Of a stretch of 64,000 nt of DNA, positions 2,179-62,340 are shown one piece after another. The notes under the pieces are model-generated. The model searched no databases, was not told the DNA's origin, and worked only from the letters and a program-made list of their open reading frames with translations. Position numbers and translations under genes: made by a program. Position 1 is the stretch's first letter. The number at the start of each line of letters is the position of its first letter. Origin of the DNA: Alphaproteobacteria bacterium (lineage in GTDB: Bacteria > Pseudomonadota > Alphaproteobacteria > UBA9219); contig JAYRGC010000070.1 of NCBI GenBank assembly GCA_041908065.1, positions 33,180 to 97,179 on the forward strand, given 5' to 3'.

Positions 2179-2446
2179 GGCTCTCACCCAAAACGGGTGG
2201 GTGGTTTTACATTTAAACGCAACGCAAACACCGTCATTGCGAAGTTACGGCCAAAGGCCGTCATTGCGAAGTTACGGCCAAAGGCTGTCTGCGAGCCGCC
2301 CCCTTTGGTTTGGACAGCGTTAACGCTGTCGGGCGGCGAAGCAATCCAGAGCAGTTGCGCCTGTGGCACTGGATTGCTTCGCCGCCAAGGGGCGGCTCGC
2401 AATGACGGCCCTTTTAAGGTAATACCCACCCGTTTTGCGTAAGAGC
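2179..2446. repeat. MITE-like element copy A (TIR ggctct[c/t]acccaaaacgggtgggt ... tacccacccgttttgcgtaagagcc)
   Basis: Terminal inverted repeats at 2179-2203 and 2422-2446. Internal 2x tandem 27-bp unit gtcattgcgaagttacggccaaaggc. Hairpin ggcggcgaagcaatccag...ctggattgcttcgccgcc. Confidence 0.85.
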
Positions 2447-2532
2447 CACTTTTTGGTTGTAGAGCAGATTCACGCGAACGGTTTGCGCTGAAGCGCGTAA
2501 AACTTATCGCGATCTGCTCTAATTCGCCGGAA

Positions 2533-3186
2533 TTACGCGCTTTCGGCCACCATGGCCAAGGTTATCCGCCTTTTTTTATGCCGAGCCGCCGCTTCGTCCA
2601 ATCTGTTCGCCAGAGCCCGCAAGGCGGCGGGAGAGCGTTCGCAGGTCTTCAATATCCGGTCTATCGCCGCTTCGTCGCAATCCAGCCGCCGATCCGACAA
2701 CAGCTTGGCCAGAACCAAAGCCAACATGTCGTCGTCGGGAGGGAGCAATTCGGCGGAGACGATCGCGTTGAGGCGGGAGGAAAGATCCGGCAACCGCACC
2801 CCCCATCGCGACGGCGGGGACGAAGCGGCCAGCAATAGCCAGCCCCTTTGTTCGACCACGCGGTTATAGAGATGGAAAAGCCCGCGTTCCCTGTCATCGT
2901 TTCCGGCCACGGCGTCGGCATTGTCCACGGCCAGCATCGCCCCTTTTTCGGCCACGAAATCGCGCGAGTAGTCGGATAGCGCGGACACGTCCAGTTCCGC
3001 GCCGCCGCTGGTATTTCTCCATACCTTCAGCAGGTGGGTTTTGCCGGATCCCGAAGCTCCGTGGATTATGGCCGACCGCGTTTCGTTTCCCCACGACATC
3101 GGCCATCCGGCAATCAGCTTCCGCGCCGCCGCGTTGGAAGCCGATGGTATGAAATCGCAGGATTCCATGGCGTCGGCAGCCGGCAT
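2533..3186 (-). CDS. hdaA: DnaA regulatory inactivator HdaA (DnaA-homologue AAA+)
   Basis: QLPLV N-terminal motif, Walker A GASGSGKTHLL, and Hda-like C-terminus. ATG at 3186-3184. The ORF extension up to 3780 is Arg-rich, overlaps the AI-2E gene, and is judged non-coding. Confidence 0.75.
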   Translation of the reverse strand: MPAADAMESCDFIPSASNAAARKLIAGWPMSWGNETRSAIIHGASGSGKTHLLKVWRNTSGGAELDVSALSDYSRDFVAEKGAMLAVDNADAVAGNDDRERGLFHLYNRVVEQRGWLLLAASSPPSRWGVRLPDLSSRLNAIVSAELLPPDDDMLALVLAKLLSDRRLDCDEAAIDRILKTCERSPAALRALANRLDEAAARHKKRRITLAMVAESA

Positions 3187-3230
3187 GACCAAAGGGAGCT
3201 GCTCGGCAGAACGATCAAAAGGGAAAAGGT

Positions 3231-4445
3231 TCACTTCTTGTCCCCGTGATAGACCGAGCTGGATCGGTATTTCCGCAGGGCAAAACGCACCAAAACCCCC
3301 ATCACCGCCGCGACCGGAACGGCTATCAACACTCCGACGAAGCCCAAAAGGCTGCCTCCGGCGAACAACGCGAACAGTATCCAGACCGGATGCAATCCCA
3401 CACGATCCCCGACGAGCTTGGGGGTGAGAACGTAGCCTTCCAATATCTGGCCGACCAAAAACACGCCTAAAACCACGCCTATCCGCCATGCTTCGTCGAA
3501 CTGGAGCAGGGCCAGCCCCAATCCCGCCACCAGACCGAATGTGGAGCCGACATAGGGGACGAACGACAACGCTCCGGCGATTATCCCTACGGTAGCCCCG
3601 TAATGCAGCCCCGCTGCGGTAAGTCCTGCGCTGTATATGAAGCCTAGAGCTAGGCAGACCATCGCCTGTCCGCGCACGAAACCGGACAAGGCGCGGTTCA
3701 CCTCCCCCAGCTCCTGCTTTATGGTGTCGCGATGGCGGCGCGGCAGGAGCCTGTCCACCGCCTCGGTCAGTTTCGGCCAATCCCGCAGCATGTAAAAAGC
3801 CACCACCGGCGTGATTATCATCAAGGCCAGAACGTCGAATATCGCGAAGCTCCCGTCAACCAGTTTCCGCAAGATCCGCCCCGCCCATACCACCGCGTCT
3901 CCGGCGTACTGTCCGGCGGCCTCGCGGAATCTGTCCATGTCCTGAGGAGAGATGTCGCCGACCATGCTCTCTAGCTTGGGCAGCAACGTGGAGCGAAAGG
4001 ATTCCGCGTACCCGGGCATCGCCCGCAGCAAAGCCGCTATCTGCCCTTGCAGCAAGGGTATCAACAGCGTCAACAAGAATAGTCCCAGAGTCAAAAATCC
4101 CAACATGGCCAGCATTGTTCCAAGCCAGCGCGGGATCTTGAATCCGGACAGGTAGCTAACGACCGGATCGAGAAAATACGCCAAGGCCAATCCGGCCACG
4201 AACGGCAAGAGCATGGGCTTCAACGCCCACACCAATATCGCGAAAACCGCGAATACGGCTCCCCAGAAACGGGTTTGGGCGGAAAGGGTTGTGTCTGACA
4301 CCGGCGCATCCTCCTGAAAAACGGCGTTTTTGCCTAAACCTCTGTTAGGCCGCATAATTTCAACGAGACGAAATATATTCGCAAACGCGGCGAAAATCCA
4401 TGAAGTCTCAAATTGCTTGGAACGCTTACGGCTTGGGGTTATCAT
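3231..4445 (-). CDS. AI-2E family transporter (PerM/YhhT-like)
   Basis: Multiple TM helices. Motifs LPFVAGLALAYFLDPVV and GLVAGLGLALLQF. Start codon uncertain. Confidence 0.75.
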   Translation of the reverse strand: MITPSRKRSKQFETSWIFAAFANIFRLVEIMRPNRGLGKNAVFQEDAPVSDTTLSAQTRFWGAVFAVFAILVWALKPMLLPFVAGLALAYFLDPVVSYLSGFKIPRWLGTMLAMLGFLTLGLFLLTLLIPLLQGQIAALLRAMPGYAESFRSTLLPKLESMVGDISPQDMDRFREAAGQYAGDAVVWAGRILRKLVDGSFAIFDVLALMIITPVVAFYMLRDWPKLTEAVDRLLPRRHRDTIKQELGEVNRALSGFVRGQAMVCLALGFIYSAGLTAAGLHYGATVGIIAGALSFVPYVGSTFGLVAGLGLALLQFDEAWRIGVVLGVFLVGQILEGYVLTPKLVGDRVGLHPVWILFALFAGGSLLGFVGVLIAVPVAAVMGVLVRFALRKYRSSSVYHGDKK

Positions 4446-4520
4446 CCGCAGCGAAGCGATCGCGATTCGTAGGCTGCGTTCGCTGGCGTTAGCTGTCGTA
4501 TCGACAACGGACTGGGAGGT

Positions 4521-5564
4521 GTGATGTTCTCGCGTTTAATGGGTAGATCGTCATTCAGTTCCGCGTGTCTGGCCGCAGTCGCGTTTTCGGTAGCTGCCTT
4601 GGCAACTACGCCGTCAGCGTTCGCGGCGAACGACACGGCTTCCAGCATCTTGTCGCAAATAAACCCCTCCGGCGGAACCGCTCCATCCGATCTGTTCAAC
4701 CGCAAGGCGACGCCTCCCGACATAGCCTCGATTCCGGTTCTCAACAACATGACGAAAGTGGGGGCGAAGCTGCATTATATCGGCGAGCGTTCCGGCATAC
4801 ACGGATGGTTTATCATCAAGGACGGGCAGATACAGGTCGTTTACCTGTCGCCAGACAAGCGCAGCGCGATAATGGGCGCGATGTTCACGGATAACGGCGA
4901 AAACGTCACCGGCCCCCAAGTGGAATCCCTATCTACCGCCGACAAGTCGGTCGAAGCCTTGGTCGCCGAAAGCGCGCGCCAAGAAGGCGCTGTGATGATG
5001 GCGGGGCTTGCCCCGGGCGGATCGGCGAACGTGCAGGGCGCGAAAGCTCCGGCGGCTAGCACGGGGAAGAATGACGCGCCAACCACGTTGGCCTTCCCTC
5101 TGCCGCCCGGGGAAAGATTGTTGAACGACATGCAAGCGGCGGCGGGCGTGGTGCTGGGAAAATCCGACGCGCCGTTGTTGTTCATGATGGTCGATCCCAA
5201 CTGCCCCCATTGCAAATCGACGTGGCGGGAACTTAGGGAAAGCGTGACCTCCGGCAAGCTCCAGATCAAGCTGGTTCCCATCGGATATTTGCGCCCCGAC
5301 AGTCCGAAAATCTCCGCCCAGCTTTTGCGCGCCGCCGATCCTCTGTCGGCTTGGGATAAATACGCCGAAGGCGACGCTTCGGAATTGGCGGGCGAACCGG
5401 ATCCAACGTTCTTGCAAGCCATTCGCAACAACCAGCTGATGTCCGAGAAATGGCATATCTCGGGAACGCCCTATCTGGTGTACCGCGCCAAAGGCGGATC
5501 CATCAAGATAGTGCAAGGCAAGCCAGATCGCATGCCAGCGGTTTTGTCAGATTTGCTCAGGTGA
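4521..5564 (+). CDS. Periplasmic thiol:disulfide interchange protein, DsbC/DsbG-like (N-terminal dimerisation domain plus thioredoxin fold with CPHC)
   Basis: Signal peptide ...ATTPSAFA. CPHC active site. Downstream cis-Pro region GTPYLVY. Confidence 0.65.
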   Translation: MMFSRLMGRSSFSSACLAAVAFSVAALATTPSAFAANDTASSILSQINPSGGTAPSDLFNRKATPPDIASIPVLNNMTKVGAKLHYIGERSGIHGWFIIKDGQIQVVYLSPDKRSAIMGAMFTDNGENVTGPQVESLSTADKSVEALVAESARQEGAVMMAGLAPGGSANVQGAKAPAASTGKNDAPTTLAFPLPPGERLLNDMQAAAGVVLGKSDAPLLFMMVDPNCPHCKSTWRELRESVTSGKLQIKLVPIGYLRPDSPKISAQLLRAADPLSAWDKYAEGDASELAGEPDPTFLQAIRNNQLMSEKWHISGTPYLVYRAKGGSIKIVQGKPDRMPAVLSDLLR

Positions 5565-5570
5565 CGTACA

Positions 5571-5864
5571 ATGGGGGGATGGCTGCAAAAGGCGAGCGAT
5601 AAAACCAGATCCAACATCGGAAAAGTCTCGGCTTCTTCTCTTCCCGCCCTGCGCAACTGGGACAGGTTAGTAAAAACCTTCGAGGGCGAGGGAAAGTCGG
5701 GGGAATTGCCCAACGCTTCGCTGGTTTACGGCGTGGGCAGCGCGATTTTGATCGCGGTCGCGGCGTTTTTCATCATAGGTGGCAGCTATGCCAGCGGCCT
5801 GCTGGTTTTGATACCCGCCGCCGGATTATTGGGCTTCGCCCTTTATTTCCTGAAATACCGCTGA
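5571..5864 (+). CDS. Small membrane protein, hypothetical
   Basis: Two predicted TM helices in the C-terminal half. No recognisable family. Confidence 0.35.
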   Translation: MGGWLQKASDKTRSNIGKVSASSLPALRNWDRLVKTFEGEGKSGELPNASLVYGVGSAILIAVAAFFIIGGSYASGLLVLIPAAGLLGFALYFLKYR

Positions 5865-5889
5865 TCCTGTTTCCGGCGCGGGTTTCTCT

Positions 5890-8800
5890 TCATTTGGTGA
5901 AAAACAGGTTGCGTAAGAATCCCGGGGTCAACAACGAGATGGGGTTCACGCTTATCGACGGATCGGACAAATTCCCTTTGACCGTATAGGCGGCGGCGAT
6001 GACGCCTTGGCCGTCGCCGCCGGTTATCACGTCGCCTAGTATCGGTATCATGTTGATCATGCGATTGAAGAAGCTGAAAGGAACCAGCGTTCCGCTTAGA
6101 TCCGCCATTCCGGTTTCGATGTTCAGCTTGCCGTTGACGTTGATCCCCACCGAGGCTCCGGAAGTCTGAACCTCGCGCAATTCCGCCCAATCGCCTTCAA
6201 GGCGGAATTTGCCGCGCAAGCGATCGAAGCCGGAAGATCCGCCCGACAGCAAGTCGGCGAATCCCAAAGGCGACATGGCGTCCAAAAGCCGCATAAGAAC
6301 CGGCAATCCCGAAACCGAGAAGTTGCCGATGTCAATGTCACCCTCGATCGCGTCCTGATTGTCGGAAGGCGTAGTCCCTTTTATCACCAGCTTCCCGCCG
6401 TTGACCGCCTCCGACAGCCCTGCTCCTTTCAAAGCCTTGCCGAAATCGTCGCAAACCACGGACAGGGTTCGTTTAGGCGGTTGAGCGGCCTTGATGGCGT
6501 TGGGGGACTTCTTACCGCCCTTCGCCGCCACCGCCGTCGTCTCTGGCAACAACGCCACCCGCAACGGATGCGTGCCGTCGGCGACGCCTTGCAGATCTAT
6601 TTCCTCCCACCCCTTGGACGAACGCGAAGCCCTCCCCCGCAGATCCGAGATAAATCCGTTTTCTCCGGTATAAAGCCTTTCCAACCGGAAAACGTATTCT
6701 TTACCAACGACGCCGTCCGCGCCGCCGCCCTTGGCGTCGTCGGAAGAGGAGGCCAGTATTCCGCTGGCGTCAAAAGATTTTCCTTCCACTGTGAACTTGG
6801 TCTTGCCGCCGTCAGGACGAAACAGTCCGATTTTAGCATCGGTGCGGCCTACCGAAATATTATCCATTTCCAACCGCGCCAGACGGCTGCCGCTTTCGTC
6901 CAAGGCCGCCGAGCCTTTGGCCGAGATGCCCGATCCTTGCAACGATAGATAGTCTATTTTAACGGCTCCCGAAGCCGGAATGTCGGCGGCAAACTCTGCA
7001 ACGACCGCGATTCCGGCGGGCTTGTTCCAGTTTATCTCCCGCGCGTTGATCGTCGCCTGCCGCAGATCGACGCTGCCGGAAAGCCGCGAAGGCTTGTCCC
7101 CGCCTTTGAAAAACTTCAGCGCGGCAACGGTGGGGCCTTGGCCGTATTCCGTGAGATCCAAACCAAGTTGCCGCCATTGCTCCATGGTGACGGGGCCGGA
7201 CAAATCAGCTTGATGCGAAGGATGCCCCGACGCGGCGGAGGCGAACTCGGTTCGCCATACCGCCTGAAAAGGAACTCCGGCGATGGCCGCCGAGCCTTTC
7301 AGCTCCAATCCGTCCTTGTCGAGGCTCAGATCCAACGTGCCATCCGACACGTCCATGCCTCCCGCCAACTTTTTCGCGCCGAACCCCGACAGCTTGGCCG
7401 CTGCCTTAAGATCCACATCGGAAAACTTAACGTCGTCCAAAAGCGGCAGTTTCAGTTCCAAAGTGCCGGAGACCATTTGCCCGTCGCAGTCTTCGGGCTT
7501 CACCCCAACTTCCTTGGCGTACCCGAGCGGCGGGGAATCTATTATGGCAATCACCTCGCGCACCGGACCTGACAGGTTCAGCGGGACAGATAAATACTGG
7601 ACGTCCTTTTCAAAATCCGTAAGCTGAACGACCGAAGGCAGAATCTTGACCTTGCCCACGTTGCCGGACGCGACATTTATGTCCATGTGGCGCAAGTCGA
7701 ACACGGCGTCGGCGGACACGTTTTCCACCGGCGGCATTCCTTCGACGTAACGCGCCGTGGAACCGGAAATGGCCAGCTTCCCCTCTCCGGAATCGACGGA
7801 GGAATTGGCGTAGTCGTTCATATCCACCCGTCCGCGCAGCGTGGCCTCCCCCGCCGTCAAGGATCCCTTGGACACGTTGGCTACTATCCATTCTCTGGCT
7901 TCGGGGATCGCCGTCTTGGGCCAGATGGCGGAATAGTCGTCCATCGGCAGATCGGTAAGGCCAAGCTGGACGACGAACGGGGCTTCGCGCAAGGCGGCGT
8001 CGGGGGAAGGAAGCGAGACATCGCCCTTGGCAGACAGTTTGCTTCCGCCGAAATCGACATCGAAGGCGGAAATATCCACCTTGCGCTCCGTCCCGTCATA
8101 GGTGGCCGACAGCGAAGCCTTGGCTATTTCCCTAGGATTGTCCCATAAATCGGGAACGTTCAGTTTTCCCGCGCCGCCCGTCACGTTCAACGACAACAAG
8201 GAAAGCTCGCCGTTACGGGCGGATTTCAGCATTACCTCGCCGTCCATAGGCGCGTCGACCGCCGACAAAAAGCCGAGTTTGGGGTGCTTGTCGGAGAAAA
8301 AGCGGGGATTTATGCCGCTGAAGCGCAGCGACACCGCGTGCATTCCATCGCCTTTGCCGTCGAAGCGGTAACTGGCGTAGATCGGGGCTACGATTTCGCC
8401 CTGAGACACCTCTATTTGAGCGGAACCTTCCAGCATAGCCCCTTGGCGGCGAAGATAAACCGAGGGCACGGCCACCGCCCAATCGCTGCCGGTCTCTTCG
8501 TCGCGGACCGACACCGCGGCTCCGGAAATCCCTATCGCCTTGGGCATGTAGGCGTTTAAGGAAAATCCGCCTTCGTCTTCGCCGGTTCCCATTCCGCCGA
8601 AGGAAAATCCTCCGCCGGTCGTCCTAAGCAGGGCGATGCGCGGCCTTTCCAGAAATATCTCGGAAGGCACGAAATTGCCCAGCAGCATTCCGGTGACGCC
8701 AAATTTAACCAGCAGATATGGGGCTTCGGCTATCGCCGCCCCCGTTTCGTCGCGCAGTTTGAAATTGTCGGCGCGCAAGGACACCGAAAAATCAGAATTG

Positions 8801-9000: not shown

Positions 9001-9148
9001 GACGGCGGGGAATGTATCACATAATCGGCGTCAGGAAAGCGGCTCGAAGCGGTTTTTATCCCAACTTCTTCCCCCACCTTGACAGCCAAGCCATTTATGG
9101 CTGATCTTGGGCGCGTGATTTCAGTGTCAACCAAATGCGGGTATTTCC

Positions 9149-9790: not shown

Positions 9791-9795
9791 ATCGC

Positions 9796-10275: not shown

Positions 10276-10320
10276 AACGAAAAAGTATTTATCTGTTATG
10301 CCACAGGCTTAAGCAAGCGC

Positions 10321-10400
10321 GGTGCGTTCCTCCCCCTAAGAAGGGGGAGGAACAGACCGTGATTGCTGAAAGAGAAATTCTTTACCCGCCAATTTTTAGA
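10321..10400. repeat. Variant MITE subfamily copy (hairpin cctcccccttaagaagggggagg plus degenerate TIR tacccgccaatttttagaaagagcc)
   Basis: Perfect 9-bp-stem palindrome at 10327-10352. Shares the core ggaggaacagaccg with 36670-36700. 3' TIR is related to the main MITE family. Confidence 0.6.
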
Positions 10401-10431
10401 AAGAGCCTAAAAAAGCGGAGCATCGTCGCCC

Positions 10432-15995: not shown

Positions 15996-16086
15996 GGCTC
16001 TTTCTGAAAACGGGTGGGTAATTTCGTAGTCGCCTGCATCGGCTCGCAATGACGTCTCTTTATTCCCACCTGTTTTGCGTAAGAGC
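15996..16086. repeat. MITE-like element copy B (minimal: both TIRs plus cggctcgcaatgacg core)
   Basis: TIR ggctctttctgaaaacgggtgggta at 15996 and tcccacctgttttgcgtaagagcc ending at 16086. Confidence 0.8.
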
Positions 16087-16109
16087 CATGTATTAAGGGT
16101 TTCCGCCAA

Positions 16110-17469: not shown

Positions 17470-17565
17470 GTTACGCTGCGGCGAAGCAATCCAGTGCCGT
17501 TGCGCCTGTGGCTCTGGATTGATTCGCGTCGCAAGAGCGACGCTCGCAATGACGTCGCTTGCTGC
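17470..17565. repeat. MITE-like element partial copy C (hairpin plus cgctcgcaatgacg module, no TIRs)
   Basis: Sequence ggcgaagcaatccag...ctggattgattcgcg followed by gacgctcgcaatgacgtcgcttgctgc. Confidence 0.7.
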
Positions 17566-17751
17566 TTATCTTGTGCATAGTTATGCGGAGGATCGTCCTC
17601 TCACCAAGATTCGCCCAAGGCATTTCTATTCACAATGGCCGCGTCCCTCCGTTTCGAGCTGATGCCGATGGCGATGCCAACTAGCAAACGCGGCACCAAG
17701 ACCTCTGGTATAATGCCAATGGCCATACAAGACTCCGCTTAGGACGCGGGA

Positions 17752-19057: not shown

Positions 19058-19060
19058 GCG

Positions 19061-22365: not shown

Positions 22366-22623
22366 GGCTCTTTCTGAAAACCGGTGGGCAAGAAATCTCT
22401 GGCTCTTACGCAAAACTGGTGGGAAAAAGAGCCGTGCGAGGTTACAGCCAAAGGCTGTCTGCGAGCCGCCACCCTTTGGTTTGGACAGCGTTAACGCTGT
22501 CGGGCGGCGAAGCAATCCAGGCCTTATGGAGCAACGGCACTGGATTGCTTCGCGTCGCAAGGGCGACGCTCGCAATGACGTCGCTTGCTATGCAAAATTA
22601 TCCACCCGTTTTGGGCAAGAGCC
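22366..22623. repeat. MITE-like element copy D, located inside the pil operon (pilP-pilQ intergenic)
   Basis: Duplicated left TIR (ggctctttctgaaaaccggtgggc / ggctcttacgcaaaactggtggg). Hairpin and cgctcgcaatgacg modules. Right TIR tccacccgttttgggcaagagcc. Confidence 0.85.
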
Positions 22624-30704: not shown

Positions 30705-31586
30705 CTAATTCCGTAAATTAGCGATAGTATTTTTGAGCTGGCTGCCTTTGACCTCGCGCTTTGTCCAGACGAAAGGCTTTGCGGTGGTGTCGTAAGCCTC
30801 GCAAAAATTCTCGATGGCCCGCTTGAGGTCGTCGATGCTTTTGAAGCTTGCGCCGCGCAGGGCTTTGCGCGACAGAATGCCGAACCAGATTTCGACCATG
30901 TTGAGCCAACTGGCTGATGTCGGCGTGTAGTGAAAGAAGACATTGGGATTTCGCTCCAGCCAATCCTCGTTCTTTTTGTGCGTCGAATAATTGTCCACAA
31001 TGATGTGGATCTCCCGATCTTCAGGAACGTCCGCCACCACATCGTCAAGAAAGGCCTGAAAATCAGGACGCTTTTTTGTCTGCGTCATTTTCGTTTTGAC
31101 TTGTCCTGTCGCGGTGCTGAGCGCGGCAAAAAGGTTCAGCGTGCCGTGCCGCTTATAGGTGCTTTTAAGGCCGCGAACAATTTTCTGGCTGGATGTTTTG
31201 ACATATCCCGTCGCACGTTCCAGTGCCTGAATGGATGGTTTTTCGTCGATCGAAATGACGACCGCCCGTTCCGGCGGGTTGAGATAAAGCCCTATGATGT
31301 CCGCCGATTTGGCGGCAAATTGCGGGTCTGTGCTGACGCACCAGCTTCGCTGCCGCGCCAATTGGATGTTTTTCCGGCGCAAGAAGCGCCAGACAGCGCT
31401 GGCCGTGCCGCCCACGGTTTTGGCCAGAGCTTTTCCGTCTCAGGTTGATTGGCCCTTGGGCGGGGGCGACTCTAACGCCTTTACGATTTTCGCTTCGTAT
31501 TCTTCGCCATACTCTTTGCGTCGCCCGCTCCGTGCGGCGTCCTCCAGTCCCGCCAATCCCTGCGCCGCAAAACGACGACGCCATTT
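30705..31586 (-). pseudogene. IS630-family transposase, inactivated (in-frame TGA at 31442-31440, 5'-truncated)
   Basis: DDE_3 domain DEKPSIQALER ... DNYSTHKK. Upstream in-frame KWRRRFAAQGLAGLEDAARSGRRKEY ... PPPKGQST*. The stop is TGA where W (TGG) is expected. The N-terminal HTH is missing. Confidence 0.8.
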
Positions 31587-31677
31587 TCACCAGCTCATGC
31601 CCCATGTCGATGACCTGCTCAAGCCGAGCGCGGAACAGGTCTTCCTGCCCACTATTCTGCGGATTTTCCTTCAGCAT
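31579..31677 (-). mobile_element. IS5-family transposase N-terminal fragment
   Basis: MLKENPQNSGQEDLFRARLEQVIDMGHELVKMA matches the conserved IS5-group N-terminal motif DLFR..L.QII...H.LV.LA. It is fused to the IS630 remnant. Confidence 0.55.
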
Positions 31678-36517: not shown

Positions 36518-36669
36518 GGCATTTCCTTTTCCGTTCGGGTTGTCTTTCCGGTTTCAGACGGGATCACCCCCGCCTTAAACCGGTTTTGCATGAAGAGATT
36601 CTTGGCTCTTGCCCAAAGCGAGTGGATAAATAGTCGCTATTTCGACAATCACATCCTGTCCCCCCTTTT

Positions 36670-36758
36670 CTTAGGAGGAGGAACAGACCGCGTCGACGGG
36701 GGTAACGTCGCTACCCCCCCGATAAAAACCCACTACCCACCCGTTTTGTGTAAGAGCC
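36670..36758. repeat. Variant MITE subfamily copy E (ggaggaacagaccg core plus C7 tract plus right TIR tacccacccgttttgtgtaagagcc)
   Basis: Shares its core with 10321-10400. Right TIR at 36734-36758. Confidence 0.6.
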
Positions 36759-36876: not shown

Positions 36877-37209
36877 ATGAAAGGCCCTAGCCATCGCCAA
36901 TGCGCCGCCTCGGACGACGATTTCGCTTCGCTTTACGAGGCGTTTTTGTCGATGAAAAAGCCCGACGAAGTGCGAAGGTTCCTCGCCGATTTATGCACTC
37001 CGGCGGAAATATCCGCCTTCGCCGAGAGATGGAAGATAGCGAGGGTTCTGGCGGACGGGGCATCCTCTTACCGCGACATCAACGCCGAAACGGGGGTGAG
37101 CGTGACCACCATCGCCCGCGTCGCCCGTTTCCTGCATCAGGAAGCGCACAAGGGTTACGCGCTGGCTTTGGACAGGACGCGGCACAAACGGAAAAGCCCA
37201 TCGGCCTGA
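36877..37209 (+). CDS. YerC/YecD-family TrpR-related protein
   Basis: Motif DEVRRFLADLCTPAEISAFAERWKIARVL ... GVSVTTIARVARFL. Confidence 0.7.
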   Translation: MKGPSHRQCAASDDDFASLYEAFLSMKKPDEVRRFLADLCTPAEISAFAERWKIARVLADGASSYRDINAETGVSVTTIARVARFLHQEAHKGYALALDRTRHKRKSPSA

Positions 37210-37221: not shown

Positions 37222-37415
37222 CGGCGTTTGCGAAGTTACAGCCAAAGGCTGTCTTTGTAGGGTTACGGCCAAAGGCCGTCATGCGACGCGAAGCAATCCA
37301 TTGCCACAGGCGCAACGGCTCTGGATTGCTTCGCGGCCTGAAGAAGGCCGCTCGCAATGACAGCGCTTATTGCTGCCATTCTCTTATAAATTACTCTCCA
37401 GTTTTGCGCATAGAG
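37222..37415. repeat. MITE-like element copy F (tandem 27-bp units, hairpin, degenerate TIR)
   Basis: Contains gcgaagttacagccaaaggctgtc x2, gcgaagcaatcca...ctggattgcttcgcgg, and cgctcgcaatgacagcg. Confidence 0.75.
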
Positions 37416-37565
37416 GCAACCAATTTTATGTTCTTGCCGCCTCCGCCATAACCATGCCATTATTTGGCGTTATCCTCGCTGCTTGGGTGGCCTTTTCATT
37501 GAACGAAGAGGCACCGTAAGCGGTTCGTCCGTGCAACCAGTCGTTCATCAAGGATGGAGATCCAT

Positions 37566-38444: not shown

Positions 38445-38645
38445 AGAGCCCTTCGAAGGGAACTTACGCGGCCAACGCGCCGCAATCCCTCCTCTCCCTC
38501 TGGGAGAGGATAAGTTTGCCCGAATTTTCGCCTCCGAAAATTCGCGGCAATACCTTGGTGAGGGTTCTTTTTCAAACCCAGCTTGGGAACCCTCACCAAG
38601 CTGCGGCTAAGGATTTTCGCTAAGGGGCGAAAATCCGAGCCGCGC
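38445..38645. repeat. Composite palindromic repeat, inverted copy (reverse complement of the A+B units of the 39.06-39.70 kb array)
   Basis: cccttcgaagggaacttacgcg ... cctctccctctgggagagg ... cccgaattttcgcctccgaaaattcgcgg ... cttggtgagggttc...gaaccctcaccaag. Confidence 0.8.
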
Positions 38646-38699
38646 TATCCTCTCCCAGAGGGAGAGGAATCCCCGCCGCGCCGGTTGTTTTCAATTTTA

Positions 38700-39058
38700 T
38701 AGGGAATGATTTTGGCCTCTCGAAGGATTGTTTCGATTACGCCGTTTATATCCGCCGTCACATCAGAATTAGTGAAACGGATGGTGCGATAGCCGAGTTT
38801 GGCAAGGTATTCATCGCGGTGAAAGTCTTGTCGTTGCCGCAGATCGTGTGAGATGCCATCAAGCTCGATTATCAACTTGGCTTGTAAACAAGCAAAATCC
38901 GCCGTGTATGGAGGGATTGGATGTTGGCGGCGAAACTTCAATCCAACGGACTGATATAGTCCTCGCAACCGTTGCCAAAGCAAGGATTCCGTGCGCGGCA
39001 TTTCGGATCGTAGTTTCCGTGCTTTCTTTATATGCGGTGGATGAGGTATCGTGCGCAT
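38700..39058 (-). CDS. DUF559 (Vsr-like) endonuclease domain protein
   Basis: ESLLWQRLRG ... FRRQHPIPPYTADFACLQAKLIIELDGISH ... IRFTNSDV matches the DUF559 pattern. The ORF tail (to 38645) runs into the repeat. Confidence 0.65.
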
Positions 39059-39059
39059 A

Positions 39060-39700
39060 GCGATATTGTATTGCCCTCACCAAGGTATTGCCACGAATTT
39101 TCGAAGGCGAAAATTCGGGCAAACCTATCCTCTCCCAGAGGGAGAGGGGGGATTGCGGCACGTTGCTCGCGTAAGTTCCCTTCGACAGGCTCAGGGAACG
39201 CGGAATTTCGGTTTTATGAACAACAGGTGCAGCGGCGGCACCTCTCCCTCTGGAAGAGGATAGCGCGGCTTGGATTTTCGCTCCTTAGCGAAAATCCTTA
39301 GCCGCCGCTTGGTGAGGGTTCCCAAGTTGGGTTTATAAAAGAACCCTCACCAAGGTATTGCCGCGAATTTTCGAAGGCGAAAATTCGGGCAAACCTATCC
39401 TCTCCCAAAGGGAGAGGGGGGATTGCGGCACGTTGCTCGCGTAAGTTCCCTTCGACAGGCTCAGGGAACACGAAATTTCGGATTTATGGATAGAAGATGC
39501 GGCGGGGATTCCTCTCCCTCTGGGAGAGGATAGCGCGGCTTGGATTTTCGCCCTTTAGCGAAAATCCTTAGCCGCAGCTTGGTGAGGGTTCACAAATTGG
39601 GTTTACGCAAGAAACCCTCACCAAGGTATTGCCACGAATTTTCGAAGGCGAAAATTCGGGCAAACCTATCCTCTCCCAGAGGGAGAGGACGCACCAACTG
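39060..39700. repeat. Tandem array (about 2.5 units, period ~270 bp) of a composite palindromic repeat
   Basis: Unit A (ccctcaccaaggtattgcc.cgaattttcgaaggcgaaaattcgggcaaacctatcctctcccagagggagagg...) at about 39062, 39335 and 39615. Unit B (ctctccctctgg.agaggatagcgcggcttggattttcgc...cttggtgagggttc...gaaccctcaccaagg) between them. Confidence 0.85.
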
Positions 39701-55112: not shown

Positions 55113-55135
55113 GGCCGCGATAATAGCATAGAATT

Positions 55136-55475
55136 GGCTCTTACGTAAAACGGGTGGGTAATTTTGCACCAAACGCAACAACAATCACTGTCATCTCCCC
55201 TGTTAAAGCCACAAGCTGTCATTGCGAAGTTACAGCCAAAGGCTGTCATTGCGAGGTTACAGCCAAAGGCTGTCATGTGCGAGGTTACAGCCAAAGGCTG
55301 TCTGCGAGCCGCCACCATTTGGTTTGGACAGAGTTAAACGCTGTCAGGCGGCGAAGCAATCCAGACCTTATGGAGCAACTGCTCTGGATTGCTTCGCCGC
55401 CAAGGGGCGGCTCGCAATGACGTCGCTTGCTGTTGCGTTTGGTGCAAAATTACCCACCTGTTTTGCGTAAGAGCC
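55136..55475. repeat. MITE-like element copy G (full, 3 tandem 27-bp units)
   Basis: TIRs ggctcttacgtaaaacgggtgggta and tacccacctgttttgcgtaagagcc. gtcattgcga[a/g]gttacagccaaaggct x3. Hairpin module. Confidence 0.9.
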
Positions 55476-55525
55476 CTAAAACTTATCAAAAAAAGAGTCG
55501 CAGGACTCAGATTTTAACTTTTTTG

Positions 55526-55815
55526 GGTTCTTTATCAAAACGGGTGGGTAATTTGGCCGCCAAACGCAACAACAAGCACCGTCATTGTGAAGTTACAGCC
55601 AAAGGCTGTCATTGCGAGCGGCCTTCTTCAGGTCGCGAAGCAATCCAGTGCCGTTGCTCTATGACTCTGGATTGCTTCGCCGCCTGACAGCGTTTAACTC
55701 TGTCCAAACCAAATGGTGGCGGCTCGCAATGACAGCCTTTGGCTGTAACCTCGCACATGACAGCCTTTGGCTGTGACTTCGCACATGACAGCCATTTTGG
55801 AAAGGCAATCCCTCT
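55526..55815. repeat. MITE-like element copy H (inverted relative to G; one TIR only)
   Basis: Starts with gggttctttatcaaaacgggtgggta. Modules appear in reverse-complement order. Its end abuts the mnmG stop codon. Confidence 0.8.
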
Positions 55816-57676: not shown

Positions 57677-57753
57677 CAATCCTGCTCCGTGACGCATGGG
57701 CGATGATATACCCGCGCCGAGAGCGTCAGGAAAGGGGAATATCGCTATCTGCC

Positions 57754-58320
57754 TTATGGATTGGGGCGTTGCCCGCCCCGATTCGCCCGAAGAAAATTAG
57801 GCACCGCCGGAACATGGGAGGTATTGGCGGCGTTGACGGTATCTAAAGCGAATGCCTGTCTGGTTCCGACGTCGATAAGCCATTTTTTAGTTTTGGGCGG
57901 CAATAATTTCGACAGGGATTTTTCGGCTTGATCGGCATTATTGATAAATTTCTTCAATATTGTCAGGGCGAATTTTTGCACCGGCAGTTTATCTTCTCCG
58001 GCAACAACTTTGATTTCTTCGAATATTGCCCCTTTCAGCACATCTTCGACGGATTCCAAAAGTTCACGGTGAGCGTGATCGCTTACATTGAGATTCGCGC
58101 TTCCTCCATCTATTCCCTTTAGATAAAATCCTTGTTGCAATGCGCCGTCATATCCTTGGGTGCAAAACACTCTCAAGACTCGGTTGGCGTCATTATCCAC
58201 CGGAAAATCCACCACTATGGCGGTAACAAGCGTGTTGTCGCGATTAACGTCGACATACCCTCTGACGACTTCATTCCAGAATTGGACGCGGCATTCATTG
58301 TCGGCTTTTGAGAAATTCAT
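57754..58320 (-). CDS. Hypothetical protein (low-GC insertion just beyond the mnmG start, where mnmE (not seen anywhere in this window) usually lies)
   Basis: 188-aa ORF, AT-rich. No family recognised. Confidence 0.4.
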
Positions 58321-58618
58321 ATATTTTCTCCCTAATACGTGAATACATCGAAAAATCTAAGATCTTGCCAGTGGCTGTTATAGCTTTAATTTCAGTGCCG
58401 TTCAAGCACCGCGCTATTAGTTTCAATGGTTGCTGTTTTAAAAAATGTAATAAATACAAGCACAGATTCAATGGCTGTGTCGCGTGACGGGGATTGGATA
58501 GAAGAAGAGGCAGGCCATACTGGCGCGTTAAGCCTTGGGATTGTCAATACCACGCTCGCCTGATGCTGTCAAGAGTTTTTTGATATATTAGGAAAATATT
58601 TTTATGCATAAAAGTAGC

Positions 58619-58815
58619 GGCTCTTACGCAAAACGGGTGTGTACTGCCTTCCAGCAAGTGCCGTCATTGCGAGCGGCCTTCTTCAGGCCGCGAAGCAATC
58701 CAGAGCAGTTGCGCCTGTGGCACTGGATTGCTTCGCCGCCAAGAGGCGGCTCGCAATGACGGTGCTTGTTGTTGCGGTTGGAGGCAGAATTACAAGACCG
58801 TTTTGCGTAAGAGCC
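58619..58815. repeat. MITE-like element copy I
   Basis: TIRs ggctcttacgcaaaacgggtgtgta and tacaagaccgttttgcgtaagagcc, with internal hairpin. Confidence 0.85.
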
Positions 58816-58843
58816 AAACGGGCATTATAATCGGTTGAATTAG

Positions 58844-60132
<1,289 letters not shown>

Positions 60133-60133
<1 letters not shown>

Positions 60134-60915
60134 TGGGATCGTCTTCGTCTTACTCGTCTTCGTCCCAACGCAATCCCGAAGCAGATTGGTTTGGATTTTC
60201 CCGCGTCTCGCCGGAAGAAAAGGGCGAGCGCGTGCGCGATGTGTTTTCTTCGGTAGCGGAAAGCTACGACCTGATGAACGACCTGATGTCGTGCGGGATG
60301 CATCGGTTATGGAAAGACCGCCTTGTCGGCATGATGCGGCCTCGCGCCGGACAAAGGATACTCGACGTGGCGGGAGGGACGGGCGACGTGGCGTTGCGCT
60401 GCGCTGCCAAGACCGGAGGCAAGGCGGAGATAACCGTCTGCGACATCAATCCCGATATGCTGCGTTGCGGCCGCGACAAGGCCATAGACGCGGGGTGGCT
60501 GCGCGGCATCGAGTGGATCGAGGGCAACGCCGAAAAGCTGCCGATTCCCAACCGCAGCCAGAACACCGTCAGCATCGCCTTCGGATTGCGCAACGTGACG
60601 CGCATCGACGACGCTCTGGCTGAATTCGCGCGGGTGTTGAAGCCGGGCGGCCGCTTTTTCTGTCTGGAGTTCACATCCGGCGTGTCGCCTATGTTACGCA
60701 AAATCTACGAACGCTATTGCTTCGGGATATTGCCGACGCTGGGAGAGATCGTCGCCCACGACCGCGATTCCTACCAATATTTGGCCGAAAGCATCATGCG
60801 CTTTCCGGCGCAGAGGGAACTGGCCGCCCGCATGGAATCCGCCGGACTTGCCCGCGCCTCGTGGAGCGACCTGATGGGCGGAATCGCCGTCATCCATTCG
60901 GGATGGAAGATATAG
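60133..60915 (+). CDS. ubiE: Ubiquinone/menaquinone C-methyltransferase UbiE
   Basis: Motifs VFSSVAESYDLMNDLMS and LDVAGGTGD. TGATG overlap with the upstream gene. Confidence 0.85.
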
Positions 60916-60974
60916 TTCGCGACGGAAGGTTTCCGTTTAGGTTGATGGGCCTTAGCCTATTAGACCTCTTGCAT

Positions 60975-61153
60975 AACCAATGTCATTGCGAACGTCGCCC
61001 TTGCGACGCGAAGCAATCCAGACCTTATGGAGCAACGGCACTGGATTGCTTCGCCGCCTGAAGAAGTCGGCTTGCAATGACAGCCTTTGGCCGTAACAGG
61101 GTAGATGACGGCTATTTTGGAAAGGCAATACCCACCCGTTTTTCGTAAAAGCC
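60975..61153. repeat. MITE-like element copy J (right TIR only)
   Basis: gtcattgcgaacg..., hairpin gcgaagcaatccag...ctggattgcttcgccgcc, and right TIR tacccacccgtttttcgtaaaagcc. Confidence 0.8.
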
Positions 61154-61215
61154 TTTATTTTTGTGGCGGAGGAATTTTGTGTTATTCTCCGCGCTCCACC
61201 TTTCGGTTTCTCCGC

Positions 61216-62154
61216 ATGAATCTCCATCATATGCCGTCGCTTCCCGCAGGATTTTCCGCGCGCAAGATGTTCGCGGCCGCTTTGTCGTCGGCCATCGGAT
61301 TGGCGGAAGACTATTGGAAAGACGGCGGCGCGCCGCCGCCGATGCCGGTCATGGTCGAGCCGGTCTCGGAGGAAGAAGAGGAAAAACCCTCCGTTCCCCT
61401 GCGCTGGAACGCCGACCGATGCAAGATAATGGAAACCTTGTGGGGAATCGGCCAAGTCCTGCCCGGGGGCGGGATGACCGACGCTCTGGTCGCTCCGCTT
61501 GGGTTGAACAAGGAAATGAGCGTCTTGGATTTGTCCGCCGGACTTGGAGCGTTGGCGCGCAAACTGGCGGAGGAATTCAATACCTACGTCACGGGGATGG
61601 AGCCGGACGCGGTAGTGGCGGCGCGCGGCATGGAGATGTCGGTGGCCGCCGGAAAGAGCAAGCACGCGACCGTCGAATCGTACGAGCCGACCGCCTTTGA
61701 AAGCCATAGGCATTACGACTGCATAATCGCCCGCGAATTGTTCTATCGCGTTTCGGACAAGAAAAAGATGCTGAAATCGGTGGCCGACGCCCTGAAATCC
61801 CACGGGCAGCTGGTGTTCACCGATTACATCCTCGACTCGGGGCGCAAGGGCGATCCGGCAATCGCCGCATGGTTGGCGCACGAAACCGACGCCTCGCCCT
61901 TGTCGATGAACGAAATGGTCAAGATGTGCGGCAAGCTGGGGCTGGATGTGCGCATCAACGAGGATCAAACCGCCATTTACAGGCGAGAGGTCATGATGGG
62001 ATTGAAGTCTTTCATGGCTTTCCTGATCCAGAACAAGCCTGATAAGGAGACCGGCGGGCTTGCCCTGATGGAAGTTGAAAACTGGATCCATCGCGCCTCG
62101 GCGATGGAAAAGGGGCTTCAGTTCTGCCGCTTTTACGCGATAAAGAGTTTTTAG
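61216..62154 (+). CDS. Class I SAM-dependent methyltransferase-like protein
   Basis: Motif I VLDLSAGLGALA. In alphaproteobacteria ubiB usually follows ubiE at this position. Confidence 0.5.
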   Translation: MNLHHMPSLPAGFSARKMFAAALSSAIGLAEDYWKDGGAPPPMPVMVEPVSEEEEEKPSVPLRWNADRCKIMETLWGIGQVLPGGGMTDALVAPLGLNKEMSVLDLSAGLGALARKLAEEFNTYVTGMEPDAVVAARGMEMSVAAGKSKHATVESYEPTAFESHRHYDCIIARELFYRVSDKKKMLKSVADALKSHGQLVFTDYILDSGRKGDPAIAAWLAHETDASPLSMNEMVKMCGKLGLDVRINEDQTAIYRREVMMGLKSFMAFLIQNKPDKETGGLALMEVENWIHRASAMEKGLQFCRFYAIKSF

Positions 62155-62209
62155 CCACTATTACTAATCTCCCAACACAATACTTGACACATGATTGCGC
62201 CGCATAACT

Positions 62210-62340
62210 GCTATCATCTACCCTGTTACAACCAAAGACTGTCATTGCGAGCCGCCACACCTTTGGCTGTAACAGGGTAGATAACAGTGCTTGCTGATTC
62301 TATTTGCGTCCCAATTACCCGCCAATTTTGCGTAAGAGTC
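62210..62340. repeat. MITE-like element copy K (short; palindrome ctaccctgttacaaccaaag...ctttggctgtaacagggtag plus TIR tacccgccaattttgcgtaagagtc)
   Basis: gtcattgcgagccgcc core. Right TIR ends at 62340, adjacent to the uvrD stop. Confidence 0.75.

What the first reader, a model, noticed from the sequence alone, without database searches (positions are those of the whole stretch)
2179..62340. Abundant modular MITE-like family (at least 11 copies in 64 kb) built from TIR, 27-bp tandem unit, long hairpin and complementary module
The TIR sequence appears in inverted orientation at 2179/2446, 15996/16086, 22366/22623, 55136/55475 and 58619/58815, and singly at 55526, 61153, 62340 and 36758. Between the TIRs the elements combine four modules. 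The first is 1-3 tandem copies of gtcattgcgaRgttacRgccaaaggctgtc, which is itself palindromic around acagccaaaggctgt. The second is tctgcgagccgcc...ggtttggacagcgttaac. The third is a long hairpin ggcggcgaagcaatccag-N-ctggattgcttcgccgcc. The fourth is cgctcgcaatgacg, the complement of the first module. Copies range from 91 bp (TIRs only) to 340 bp. All are intergenic and often sit tight against stop codons (mnmG, uvrD), and they generate spurious ORFs (VIAKLRPKA repeats). The density and modular structure suggest an actively reshuffling non-autonomous element, and possibly structured RNAs.
Basis: seen in the sequence. Interest (0 to 1): 0.6.

Follow-up and report, generated by a model that had tools for sequence, protein, structure and literature searches.

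The report
ISL3-type MITEs carrying CGTC-REP hairpins
The repeats are real: they are small non-coding transposons with the ends of ISL3-family insertion sequences, and their cargo is a palindromic repeat (CGTC-tagged REP dimer) that is widespread in Alphaproteobacteria and has no known transposase of its own.

Summary
A degenerate 25-base end pattern gives 18 matches at 12 intergenic loci in the window (0.03 expected by chance). There are 8 long hairpins and 27/28-bp tandem units.

The terminal repeat is an ISL3-family insertion-sequence end. It matches the right end of ISAe1 at 20 of 26 bases. It matches at 23 of 26 the ends that sit just upstream of ISL3-transposase N-termini in three metagenome-assembled genomes (MAGs). 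Complete elements are flanked by decayed 8-bp AT-rich target duplications: cognate flanks share 5.4 of 8 bases against 2.6 of 8 for non-cognate pairs (permutation p<1e-5), and one window copy is perfect (ATGTATTA).

The same hairpin stands alone, without the ISL3-type ends, in 45 viral contigs.

The same composite, ISL3-type ends around a CGTC-REP dimer, recurs in two other alphaproteobacterial lineages with different REP stems.

No ISL3 transposase or RAYT is in the window. Most copies are truncated or decayed, so current activity is unproven. No Rfam family matches.

Verdict: a new variant of known kinds, of moderate interest.

The parts
2179..2447 (.). E1, a complete element of 269 bp. It lies between convergent genes: a polysaccharide deacetylase ending at 2169 and hdaA ending at 2533.
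   Evidence: flanking 8-mers share 5/8
2563..2587 (-). Solo, strongly decayed end-like sequence (3 mismatches to the degenerate pattern).
10327..10407 (.). E12, with a right end only (10383-10407). Its interior, CCTCCCCCTAAGAAGGGGGAGGAACAGACCG, resembles the interior of E5. This is a REP-less subfamily.
15996..16087 (.). E2, the shortest complete element at 92 bp. It has two ends and only a 13-nt REP head fragment (GCTCGCAATGACG). It has a perfect 8-bp target duplication, ATGTATTA. It lies between divergent genes.
17478..17600 (.). E3, a remnant. It is truncated on the left inside module 2. It keeps a REP dimer (17478-17554), then a decayed subterminal segment and end.
22366..22623 (.). E4, complex. 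It has two left ends (22366-22391 and 22401-22426), the second followed by an AAGAGCC tip. Then come a truncated 27-bp unit, module 2, the REP dimer and the right end. It lies between two tandem minus-strand genes.
36604..36758 (.). E5, 155 bp. It has a pair of ends (the left one diverged) and an unrelated, REP-less interior.
37224..37417 (.). E6. The left end is missing and the element starts just after the stop codon of a small gene at 37209. It has two 27-bp units, a REP dimer with its loop inverted relative to E1, and a decayed right end at 37391-37417.
   Evidence: (D1, D18, I4)
55136..55475 (.). E7, the largest complete element at 340 bp. Left end 55136-55161; 27/28-bp units 55190-55299; module 2 plus REP arm 55300-55364; loop; REP arm 55384-55422; right end 55450-55475. 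It lies inside the mnmG-rsmG spacer.
55526..55812 (.). E8. It has the left end, a 27-bp unit, the REP dimer, module 2 in the opposite orientation and two 28-bp units. The right end is deleted at its inner edge. The element ends 1 nt from the mnmG stop codon.
   Evidence: (I9, I13, D16)
58619..58815 (.). E9, the simplest REP-carrying complete element at 197 bp: end, subterminal segment, REP dimer, subterminal segment, end. It lies between divergent genes.
60975..61153 (.). E10. It has a REP dimer, one unit, a type-II subterminal segment and the right end (61128-61153). There is no left end.
   Evidence: (D16, D18)
62203..62340 (.). E11. It has a palindrome of variant units around GTCATTGCGAGCCGCC and a right end (62315-62340) that abuts the uvrD/pcrA stop codon at 62341.
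   Evidence: (I23)

Best explanation
The family is a set of non-autonomous miniature transposons (MITEs) derived from, or parasitic on, an ISL3-family insertion sequence.

Proposed mechanism: an ISL3 DDE transposase encoded elsewhere binds the ~26-bp terminal inverted repeats (GGCTCTT-N4-AAAAC-N-GGTGGGTAA). It inserts the element into AT-rich intergenic DNA and duplicates 8 bp of target.

The cargo between the ends is non-coding. It is an inverted dimer of CGTC-tagged REP units. Each arm consists of a CGTC or TGTC tag, an ATTGC/GCAAT outer stem, a variable inner hairpin, GCGAAGC, and a CCAG tail. Around this sit further nested palindromes: the 27-bp units that start with GTCAT, and the GACAGCGTTAACGCTGTC insert. 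The whole element is therefore one long palindrome.

The size range of 92-340 bp and the apparent 'modularity' most likely come from deletion, duplication and loop inversion within this palindrome, and from decay of old copies.

Shown: the repeat family itself, the ISL3 homology of its ends, the 8-bp duplications, the REP nature of the interior, and the absence of a transposase in the window.
Inferred: mobilisation in trans, slippage as the source of the variants, and any effect on neighbouring genes. Possible effects are hybrid outward-reading promoters at the ends, and hairpins in the mnmG-rsmG transcript.
For: (1) Ends.
- 18 copies in 64 kb, 0.03 expected.
- The window consensus matches the ISAe1 right end, GGCTCTTTTGAAAAATGAGTGGGTTA, at 20 of 26 bases. 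Two ISAe1 copies have perfect 8-bp AT-rich duplications, ATAGAGAG and AATTTTCA.
- The ISAe1 transposase matches Pfam DDE_Tnp_ISL3 at 1.3e-65.
- In three MAGs the same end, 23 of 26 identical to the window consensus, sits about 120 bp from contig ends. It is followed 60-85 bp later by MEKIFE(K/Q)AL(G/S)VESPWFIKEMTFDAGRK. Of the 23 plasmid records that peptide matches by tblastn, 13 have an annotated gene under the match: 12 ISL3-family transposases and one hypothetical protein.
- A longer remnant next to the end in L036 aligns to ISAe1 transposase residues 4-59 with E=2e-11.

(2) Target duplications.
- In 13 complete elements (6 from the window, 7 from other genomes), cognate flanking 8-mers share 5.4 of 8 bases against 2.6 of 8 for non-cognate pairs.
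- Permutation gives p<1e-5 for the sum and 0.0004 for the count of pairs with >=6/8.
- Two are perfect, including window E2. Flanks are 79% AT.
- A further copy in L045 reads 7/8.

(3) The same ends carry different cargo.
- E5 and E12 have an unrelated interior.
- The MAG family CAWAEF01/Ga0182030 and the Holosporales MAGs carry different REP variants.

(4) Insertion into an operon junction.
- In the closest relative with a long contig (72% MnmG identity), mnmG and rsmG overlap by 4 bp. In the window they are 701 bp apart, and E7 and E8 occupy all but about 75 bp of that spacer.

(5) Multi-copy behaviour.
- A short-read assembly of the same organism breaks inside E9 and inside E8.
Against: - No ISL3 transposase is in the window (tblastn with the ISAe1 transposase gives E>1). 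The rest of the genome could not be read, so a cognate autonomous element in this organism is unproven.
- Only 1 of 6 complete window copies has an intact duplication. The others share 4-5 of 8 bases.
- Half of the loci lack one end.
- The invariant REP core (99% over 16 arms) is better conserved than the ends (89% to consensus). A purely selfish, neutrally decaying transposon does not predict this. It hints at selection, gene conversion, or later entry of the REP dimers. Part of the variation in the ends sits in a few columns that may reflect left-end versus right-end types rather than decay.
- No exact empty site in a close relative could be obtained.
Confidence: 0.8

Rival explanations
1. 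This is a REP/BIME-type array. The CGTC-REP dimers are the primary, self-propagating repeat. The outer 'terminal repeats' are merely a palindromic target sequence into which the dimers insert. Di Nocera et al. read the 41-bp palindromes around Halothiobacillus neapolitanus CGTC-1 dimers in this way.
For: - The hairpin arms meet most CGTC-REP criteria (PMC3733652).
- The same hairpin occurs alone in 45 viral contigs, with no ISL3-type end within 300 bp.
- The REP core is more conserved than the ends.
- Pairs of ends without a REP exist (E5), which could be read as unoccupied targets.
Against: - The ends are homologous to true ISL3 insertion-sequence ends that sit next to transposase genes.
- The 8-bp duplications flank the ends, not the REP dimer.
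- The copies with intact duplications are the short forms that have lost most of the REP (E2, L038, L106).
- The subterminal segments on both sides of the REP are shared between copies. This fits one capture followed by amplification.
- No RAYT was found: none among the 30 window ORFs scanned with Pfam, and the 10 scanned with NCBIfam returned no transposase-type family.
Confidence: 0.1
2. The elements are primarily host-functional structured RNAs or regulatory DNA, for example terminators, mRNA-stability or RNase-processing hairpins, or promoters. On this view they are kept by selection and are not mobile DNA.
For: - The hairpins are extremely stable, with z-scores of -10 to -17.
- Five of 11 REP-arm pairs show compensatory changes (on a hand-picked set).
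- The REP core is invariant.
- Elements sit next to stop codons and inside the mnmG-rsmG operon.
- Promoter-like hybrid sites span the left ends of E7 and E8 and read toward rsmG.
Against: - No Rfam family matches at gathering score. The only hits are sub-threshold generic long-hairpin matches.
- Copies sit in every kind of intergenic context: convergent, divergent and tandem.
- Many copies are truncated.
- Transposon ends and target duplications explain the dispersal without any function.
- The promoter and terminator calls are only consensus matches.
- This rival is compatible with later exaptation of a mobile element. It is not an alternative origin.
Confidence: 0.08

Closest known systems
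ISL3-family insertion sequences (e.g. ISAe1 of Cupriavidus necator pHG1) and MITEs derived from insertion sequences
   Same: The terminal repeats match at 20 of 26 bases (GGCTCTT...AAAA..G.GTGGGT.A). Both make 8-bp AT-rich target duplications. The elements are short and non-coding, and there are many copies.
   Different: There is no transposase gene. The interior is not a deleted remnant of the insertion sequence but a REP dimer plus nested palindromes. No autonomous partner was seen in the 64 kb available.
CGTC-tagged REPs (Di Nocera, De Gregorio, Rocco 2013, BMC Genomics 14:522; families CGTC-1 to -4, which include Neisseria dRS3 and Rickettsia RPE-4/RPE-6)
   Same: A CGTC or TGTC tag that stays unpaired. 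A stem that opens with A-T and T-A pairs. A CCA(G) tail. Inverted dimers that form a large hairpin. An alphaproteobacterial host. No associated RAYT. That paper also lists Micavibrio as a host of CGTC-1.
   Different: The published stems are 8-9 bp with 4-5 nt loops. Here a 5-bp outer stem encloses an internal loop and a variable 5-6 bp inner hairpin. In this window every dimer lies inside a unit bounded by ISL3-type ends. The paper reports no regular association with transposases. It notes only that the H. neapolitanus dimers lie in 41-bp palindromes.
GTAG REPs / BIMEs / REPINs with RAYT transposases
   Same: Short tagged palindromes, often arranged as inverted doublets that form long hairpins. 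They are intergenic and abundant.
   Different: The tag is CGTC, not GTAG. No RAYT or Y1 transposase was found among the tested ORFs. Dispersal here is explained by DDE-type ends and 8-bp duplications, which RAYT/REPIN systems lack.
Correia/NEMIS, ERIC and RUP elements (bacterial MITEs that fold into long hairpins when co-transcribed)
   Same: They are 100-350 bp, bounded by terminal repeats, intergenic, strongly hairpin-forming, and able to sit inside operons. Internal-deletion size variants occur.
   Different: The sequences are unrelated, the transposase family differs, and the duplication sizes differ. None is known to carry a tagged REP dimer as cargo. This last point rests on my own knowledge and was not tested.

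Membership tests
ISL3-derived MITE | Terminal inverted repeats homologous to ISL3-family insertion-sequence ends | tested here: met
   20/26 identity to the ISAe1 right end. 23/26 identity to ends that lie next to ISL3-type transposase N-termini in MAGs.
ISL3-derived MITE | 8-bp target-site duplication, with an AT-rich target | tested here: met
   Perfect ATGTATTA at E2. Over 13 elements, cognate flanks share 5.4/8 against 2.6/8 for non-cognate pairs, p<1e-5. Flanks are 79% AT. Most window copies are decayed, at 4-5/8.
ISL3-derived MITE | Small, non-coding and multi-copy | tested here: met
   92-340 bp. 12 loci and 18 ends in 64 kb. The only ORFs are spurious repeat-derived ones.
ISL3-derived MITE | A cognate autonomous ISL3 element in the same genome | not testable with these tools
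   None in the window. The source genome is not readable beyond the window: genome and metagenome scans did not return it, and only a 2.9-kb Logan contig could be fetched.
ISL3-derived MITE | Presence/absence polymorphism at orthologous sites | tested here: inconclusive
   The nearest relative with a long contig has only 72% MnmG identity. There mnmG and rsmG overlap by 4 bp, against a 701-bp spacer in the window, all but about 75 bp of it occupied by E7 and E8. No nucleotide-level empty site was available.
CGTC-tagged REP superfamily (Di Nocera 2013) | Unpaired CGTC tetranucleotide (TGTC or CCTC also accepted) at one end | tested here: met
   All window arms start with CGTC or TGTC, and the tag is unpaired in the folds. 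In the viral copies the tag is CGTC in 37/41 left arms and 33/38 right arms.
CGTC-tagged REP superfamily (Di Nocera 2013) | Stem whose first two pairs are A-T and T-A; unpaired tail fitting CCA | tested here: met
   ATTGC...GCAAT followed by CCAG in 16/16 arms, with one T for the final G.
CGTC-tagged REP superfamily (Di Nocera 2013) | Stem of 8-9 bp with a loop of 4-5 nt | tested here: not met
   A 5-bp outer stem, an internal loop, a 5-6 bp inner stem and a 4-7 nt loop. The paper does allow unusual loops in Bradyrhizobium CGTC-1, but its consensus figure could not be read.
CGTC-tagged REP superfamily (Di Nocera 2013) | Mostly organised as inverted dimers; no dedicated tyrosine transposase | tested here: met
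   8 dimers. No Y1 transposase among the 30 ORFs scanned with Pfam, and the 10 scanned with NCBIfam returned no transposase-type family. Not every ORF was scanned.
GTAG REP / REPIN-RAYT system | GTAG tag and an associated RAYT gene | tested here: not met
   The tag is CGTC or TGTC. No RAYT was found among the tested ORFs.
Any Rfam RNA family | Match at the family's gathering score | tested here: not met
   0 matches in the window at gathering score. The E-value scans gave only sub-threshold microRNA-type long-hairpin hits.

The most novel reading that the evidence does not exclude
The composite of ISL3-type ends around a CGTC-REP dimer is an old unit whose parts have evolved together. ISL3-family DDE transposases would then be a mobiliser of at least part of the CGTC-REP superfamily, for which no transposase has been found since its description in 2013. 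The end-less CGTC dimers seen elsewhere, for example the 45 viral-contig copies, would be descendants that lost their ends, or a separate mode of spread.

Support: three alphaproteobacterial lineages carry the same ends around REP dimers whose outer stems differ by compensatory changes.
- Window: ATTGC/GCAAT.
- MAG CAWAEF01 and metagenome Ga0182030: ATCCT/AGGAT.
- Holosporales MAGs: ATGGC/GCCAT.
Probability: 0.2. Interest if true: 0.65.

Novelty: new variant of a known kind. Interest (0 to 1): 0.42.

Why it matters
Both components are known kinds: ISL3-type transposon ends and CGTC-tagged REPs. Their regular combination is not described in the literature I could search.

If the combination is general, it gives a concrete and testable route by which CGTC REPs spread. 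They are abundant in Alphaproteobacteria, Rickettsia (as RPEs) and Neisseria (as dRS3), and are reported to lack a dedicated transposase.

Locally, the elements make up about 4% of this window. They break short-read assemblies. They split the normally overlapping mnmG-rsmG gene pair with 701 bp, most of it hairpin-forming DNA. They also generate spurious ORFs, which matters for annotating this undescribed alphaproteobacterial lineage.

Tried and rejected
- Exact-protein look-ups of three window proteins found nothing. The correct MnmG start later gave one 2.9-kb Logan contig only.
- The single genome-collection scan with the end pattern returned 57 loci but not the source genome. Only the ends matched the window.
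- The single metagenome scan (end, then N10-35, then GTCAT) returned 6 loci. All came from one sample and belonged to the second lineage.
- The viral-contig scan for the end pattern gave 0 hits.
- blastn of E7 against plasmids gave no match.
- A literature search by sequence strings gave only irrelevant primer hits.
- The Bradyrhizobium repeats Br-REP1 and Br-REP2 (PMC5082802) are different sequences.
- NCBIfam found nothing for the 27-aa transposase N-terminus. The large protein search refuses queries under 40 aa.
- Considered and rejected: the IS630 transposase at 30705-31415 as the partner. Its family makes different ends, and it has no matching terminal repeat.
- A first fuzzy-regex script timed out.

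Full report
OBSERVATION

The sequence at the reported coordinates is as described.

- The 26-mer GGCTCTTACGCAAAACGGGTGGGTAA occurs 10 times at <=3 mismatches, with 0.00 expected from shuffles.
- A degenerate form, GGCTCTTNNNNAAAANNGGYGGGTA, occurs 18 times against 0.03 expected.
- The arm CGAAGCAATCCAG occurs 16 times as 8 inverted pairs, against 0.15 expected.
- GCTCGCAATGACG occurs 11 times against 0.25 expected.
- Tandem Repeats Finder confirms 27/28-bp units at 2231-2289 (x2.2), 55202-55302 (x3.7) and 55723-55793 (x2.6).
- Whole elements fold into one long hairpin. E9 gives -134.8 kcal/mol (z -14.3), E7 gives -197.9 (z -16.6) and E1 gives -152.1 (z -10.2).

I count 12 loci:

- E1 2179-2447
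- E12 about 10327-10407
- E2 15996-16087
- E3 17478-17600
- E4 22366-22623
- E5 36604-36758
- E6 37224-37417
- E7 55136-55475
- E8 55526-55812
- E9 58619-58815
- E10 60975-61153
- E11 62203-62340

There is also a very decayed solo end at 2563-2587.

All loci are intergenic. The neighbouring genes include hdaA, a GspE-like ATPase, rsmG, mnmG, an aspartate aminotransferase, ubiE and uvrD/pcrA.

WHAT THE ENDS ARE

A scan of one genome per species with the end pattern returned 57 loci. None was the source genome, and only the ends matched the window.

In three MAGs the end lies about 120 bp from contig termini. These are a Desulfobulbus sp., a Desulfobulbaceae bacterium and an alphaproteobacterium. 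This position is the signature of an unassembled multi-copy element. The end is followed 60-85 bp later by an ORF start, MEKIFE(K/Q)AL(G/S)VESPWFIKEMTFDAGRK.

tblastn of that peptide against 72,556 plasmids matched 23 records. Thirteen of them have an annotated gene under the match: 12 ISL3-family transposases and one hypothetical protein. The individual E-values are weak (0.03-0.5) but the hits are uniform.

A longer pseudogenised remnant next to the end in L036 aligns to residues 4-59 of the ISAe1 transposase, with 39% identity and E=2e-11. That transposase carries DDE_Tnp_ISL3 at 1.3e-65.

Reading two ISAe1 copies directly gives the right end GGCTCTTTTGAAAAATGAGTGGGTTA and perfect 8-bp AT-rich duplications, ATAGAGAG and AATTTTCA. 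The window consensus is identical to that end at 20 of 26 positions. It is identical at 23 of 26 to the alphaproteobacterial MAG element's left end.

The terminal repeats are therefore ISL3-family transposon ends.

TARGET DUPLICATIONS

E2 is flanked by a perfect ATGTATTA. I took the 6 complete window copies and 7 complete copies from other genomes. Cognate 8-mers share 5.4 of 8 bases, against 2.6 of 8 for non-cognate pairings. Permutation gives p<1e-5 for the sum and 0.0004 for five pairs at >=6/8. The flanks are 79% AT.

A Holosporales copy adds a 7/8 case.

The window copies other than E2 score 4-5 of 8. They are old insertions, or were rearranged after insertion.

WHAT THE INTERIOR IS

A viral-contig scan for the hairpin CGAAGCAATCCAG-N15-23-CTGGATTGCTTCG found 45 contigs. 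In nearly all, the hairpin is extended outward to CGTCATTGCGAG...CTCGCAATGACG. None has an ISL3-type end within 300 bp. The hairpin is therefore an independent, widespread palindromic repeat of high-GC hosts (mean GC 0.65).

The literature search led to Di Nocera, De Gregorio and Rocco 2013 (PMC3733652), who define CGTC-tagged REPs as follows:

- an unpaired CGTC tag (also TGTC or CCTC);
- a stem that opens with A-T and T-A pairs;
- a CCA tail;
- mostly inverted dimers;
- mostly in Alphaproteobacteria, including Micavibrio;
- 'apparently lack a dedicated transposase'.

The window arms read (C/T)GTC | ATTGC-GAG-[inner hairpin]-GCGAA-GCAAT | CCAG. They fold accordingly.

In a hand-picked set of 17 arms, 5 of 11 pairs show compensatory changes. 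These sit mostly in the inner stem, which has three types in the window: CGGCC/GGCCG, CCGCC/GGCGG and CGTCGC/GCGACG. The tag, most of the outer stem, GCGAAGC and the tail are invariant or nearly so.

- Modules 1, 3 and 4 are the head, body and opposite head of REP units.
- Module 2 is a REP arm with the palindrome GACAGCGTTAACGCTGTC inserted.
- The 27-bp unit is a GTCATTGCGAG head fused to a small ACAGCC-AAA-GGCTGT hairpin.

The stem and loop lengths do not fit the published 8-9 bp and 4-5 nt. I therefore call these CGTC-type REPs and do not assign them to one of the four families.

ARCHITECTURE AND VARIATION

The simplest REP-carrying copy, E9, reads: end, ~27-nt subterminal segment, REP dimer, complementary subterminal segment, end.

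The other copies add or lose units on either side in palindrome-consistent orientation. E8 carries module 2 and the 28-bp units on the opposite side from E7, and the two share 63 nt at 100% complementarity (I9). E6 has its loop inverted relative to E1 (I16).

Several copies are truncated:

- E3 is truncated on the left inside module 2.
- E6, E10 and E11 lack left ends.
- E8 lacks its right end from the inner edge onward. E10 keeps the same type-II subterminal segment together with its end (D16).

E5 and E12 have the same ends with an unrelated interior.

I infer that the variants arise by deletion, duplication and inversion within a long palindrome. This is not shown.

The REP 14-mer GCGAAGCAATCCAG is 99% invariant over 16 arms, whereas the ends are 89% identical to their consensus. 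Part of the variation in the ends sits in a few columns (8, 10, 11, 17) that may distinguish left-end from right-end types. The contrast is therefore suggestive of constraint on the REP core, not proof.

RECURRENCE ELSEWHERE

Two further lineages carry the same ends around CGTC-type dimers with different outer stems.

- An alphaproteobacterial MAG (CAWAEF01) and one metagenome (Ga0182030, GC 0.41-0.49) have CGTC-ATCCT...AGGAT-CCAG, in copies of 184-458 bp. In 157 kb of those loci, most REP heads lie within about 290 bp of an end matched by a strict pattern. Several of the exceptions lie next to ends that pattern missed but blastn found. The loci were selected for containing ends, so this sample is biased.
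- Holosporales MAGs have CGTC-A(A)TGGC...GCCAT-CCAG.

The subterminal segments are unrelated between lineages. Whether this reflects one old composite or repeated capture is open.

Di Nocera et al. noted that all H. neapolitanus CGTC-1 dimers lie within 41-bp palindromes. The resemblance of that palindrome to ISL3 ends is weak, and I could not test it.

CONTEXT AND POSSIBLE EFFECTS

The exact MnmG is on record only for one 111.5-kb NCBI contig and one Logan run. The next best hit is 74% identical. The host is therefore an undescribed alphaproteobacterial lineage, and no name was retrievable.

The Logan contig starts inside E9 and ends inside E8, as expected if the repeats are multi-copy genome-wide.

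In a relative with 72% MnmG identity, mnmG and rsmG overlap by 4 bp, and 9.9 kb of its locus has no end or REP. In the window the two genes are 701 bp apart, and E7 and E8 occupy all but about 75 bp of that spacer. The window's MnmG is also 7 residues shorter at the C-terminus.

Consensus scans find promoter-like hybrid sites whose -35 hexamer lies in the left ends of E7 and E8 and which read toward rsmG. They also find one terminator-like hairpin between the two elements. These are consensus matches only.

WHAT IS ABSENT

No Rfam family reaches its gathering score. The E-value scans give only sub-threshold microRNA-type long-hairpin hits.

No ISL3 transposase is in the window. None of the 30 ORFs scanned with Pfam has a Y1 transposase or RAYT domain, and the 10 scanned with NCBIfam returned no transposase-type family. 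The only transposase is an unrelated, probably split, IS630-family gene at 30705-31677.

VERDICT

This is a MITE family, now assigned to ISL3-type ends with 8-bp duplications. Its 'modules' are a CGTC-REP dimer plus nested palindromes. Current activity and an RNA function are unproven.

I rate it a new variant of known kinds. The recurrent composite of ISL3-type ends and a CGTC-REP dimer is the part worth following, because it offers a testable mobilisation route for a REP superfamily that has no known transposase.

Noticed in passing
window 38446-39689 (also 17595-17627): A second, unrelated repeat family. A ~270-nt unit occurs in 2.3 tandem copies at 39074-39688 (TRF score 1055), with an inverted copy at 38446-38689 (244 nt, 91%). 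Each unit contains a CCTCTCCCAGAGGGAGAGG palindrome. The family fills a 1.36-kb gene-free gap, and a fragment lies right next to E3.
   Followed up: partly
window 30705-31677 (-): An IS630-family transposase (Pfam DDE_3, 3.9e-22), apparently split into two ORFs, in a low-GC stretch (0.48 against ~0.58). No clear terminal repeats were found. It is unrelated to the ISL3-type family.
   Followed up: partly
window 55113-55813: mnmG and rsmG overlap by 4 bp in a relative with 72% MnmG identity. Here they are separated by 701 bp, and E7 and E8 occupy all but about 75 bp of that. Promoter-like hybrid sites span the left ends of E7 (-35 TTTACG in the end, extended -10 TATTAT in the flank) and E8, and both read toward rsmG. 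MnmG is 7 residues shorter at its C-terminus than in the relative.
   Followed up: partly
window, all 16 REP arms (e.g. 2335-2349): Every REP arm contains GCGAAGC. From my own knowledge, this is the sequence of an unusually stable DNA mini-hairpin. It also appears in the arms of the second lineage (CCGCGAAGCGG).
   Followed up: no
L111 (Logan SRR26835459 contig, 2927 bp): A short-read assembly of the same organism begins inside E9 and ends inside E8. The elements break assemblies, which implies many copies genome-wide.
   Followed up: yes
window 22401-22433: The second left end of E4 is followed immediately by AAGAGCC, the 7-nt tip of a right end. This gives a 33-bp mini-palindrome that may be the footprint of a nested element or a deletion.
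   Followed up: no
whole window: The host appears to be an undescribed alphaproteobacterial lineage. The best non-self MnmG hit is 74% identical. The nearest named hits are Azospirillaceae, Rhodospirillales and 'Bdellovibrionales' MAGs. The window carries type II secretion / type IV pilus-like genes: a GspE-like ATPase and proteins with a PilS N-terminal domain or an N-terminal methylation (N_methyl) motif.
   Followed up: partly
L031 6802-6940 (Micavibrio sp. MAG): A ~139-bp element with the most window-like left end (GGCTCTTGCGTAAAACGGGTGGGTGATTTTGC), a decayed right end and a CCTCCC...GGGAGG hairpin interior. It resembles the REP-less window subfamily (E5, E12).
   Followed up: no
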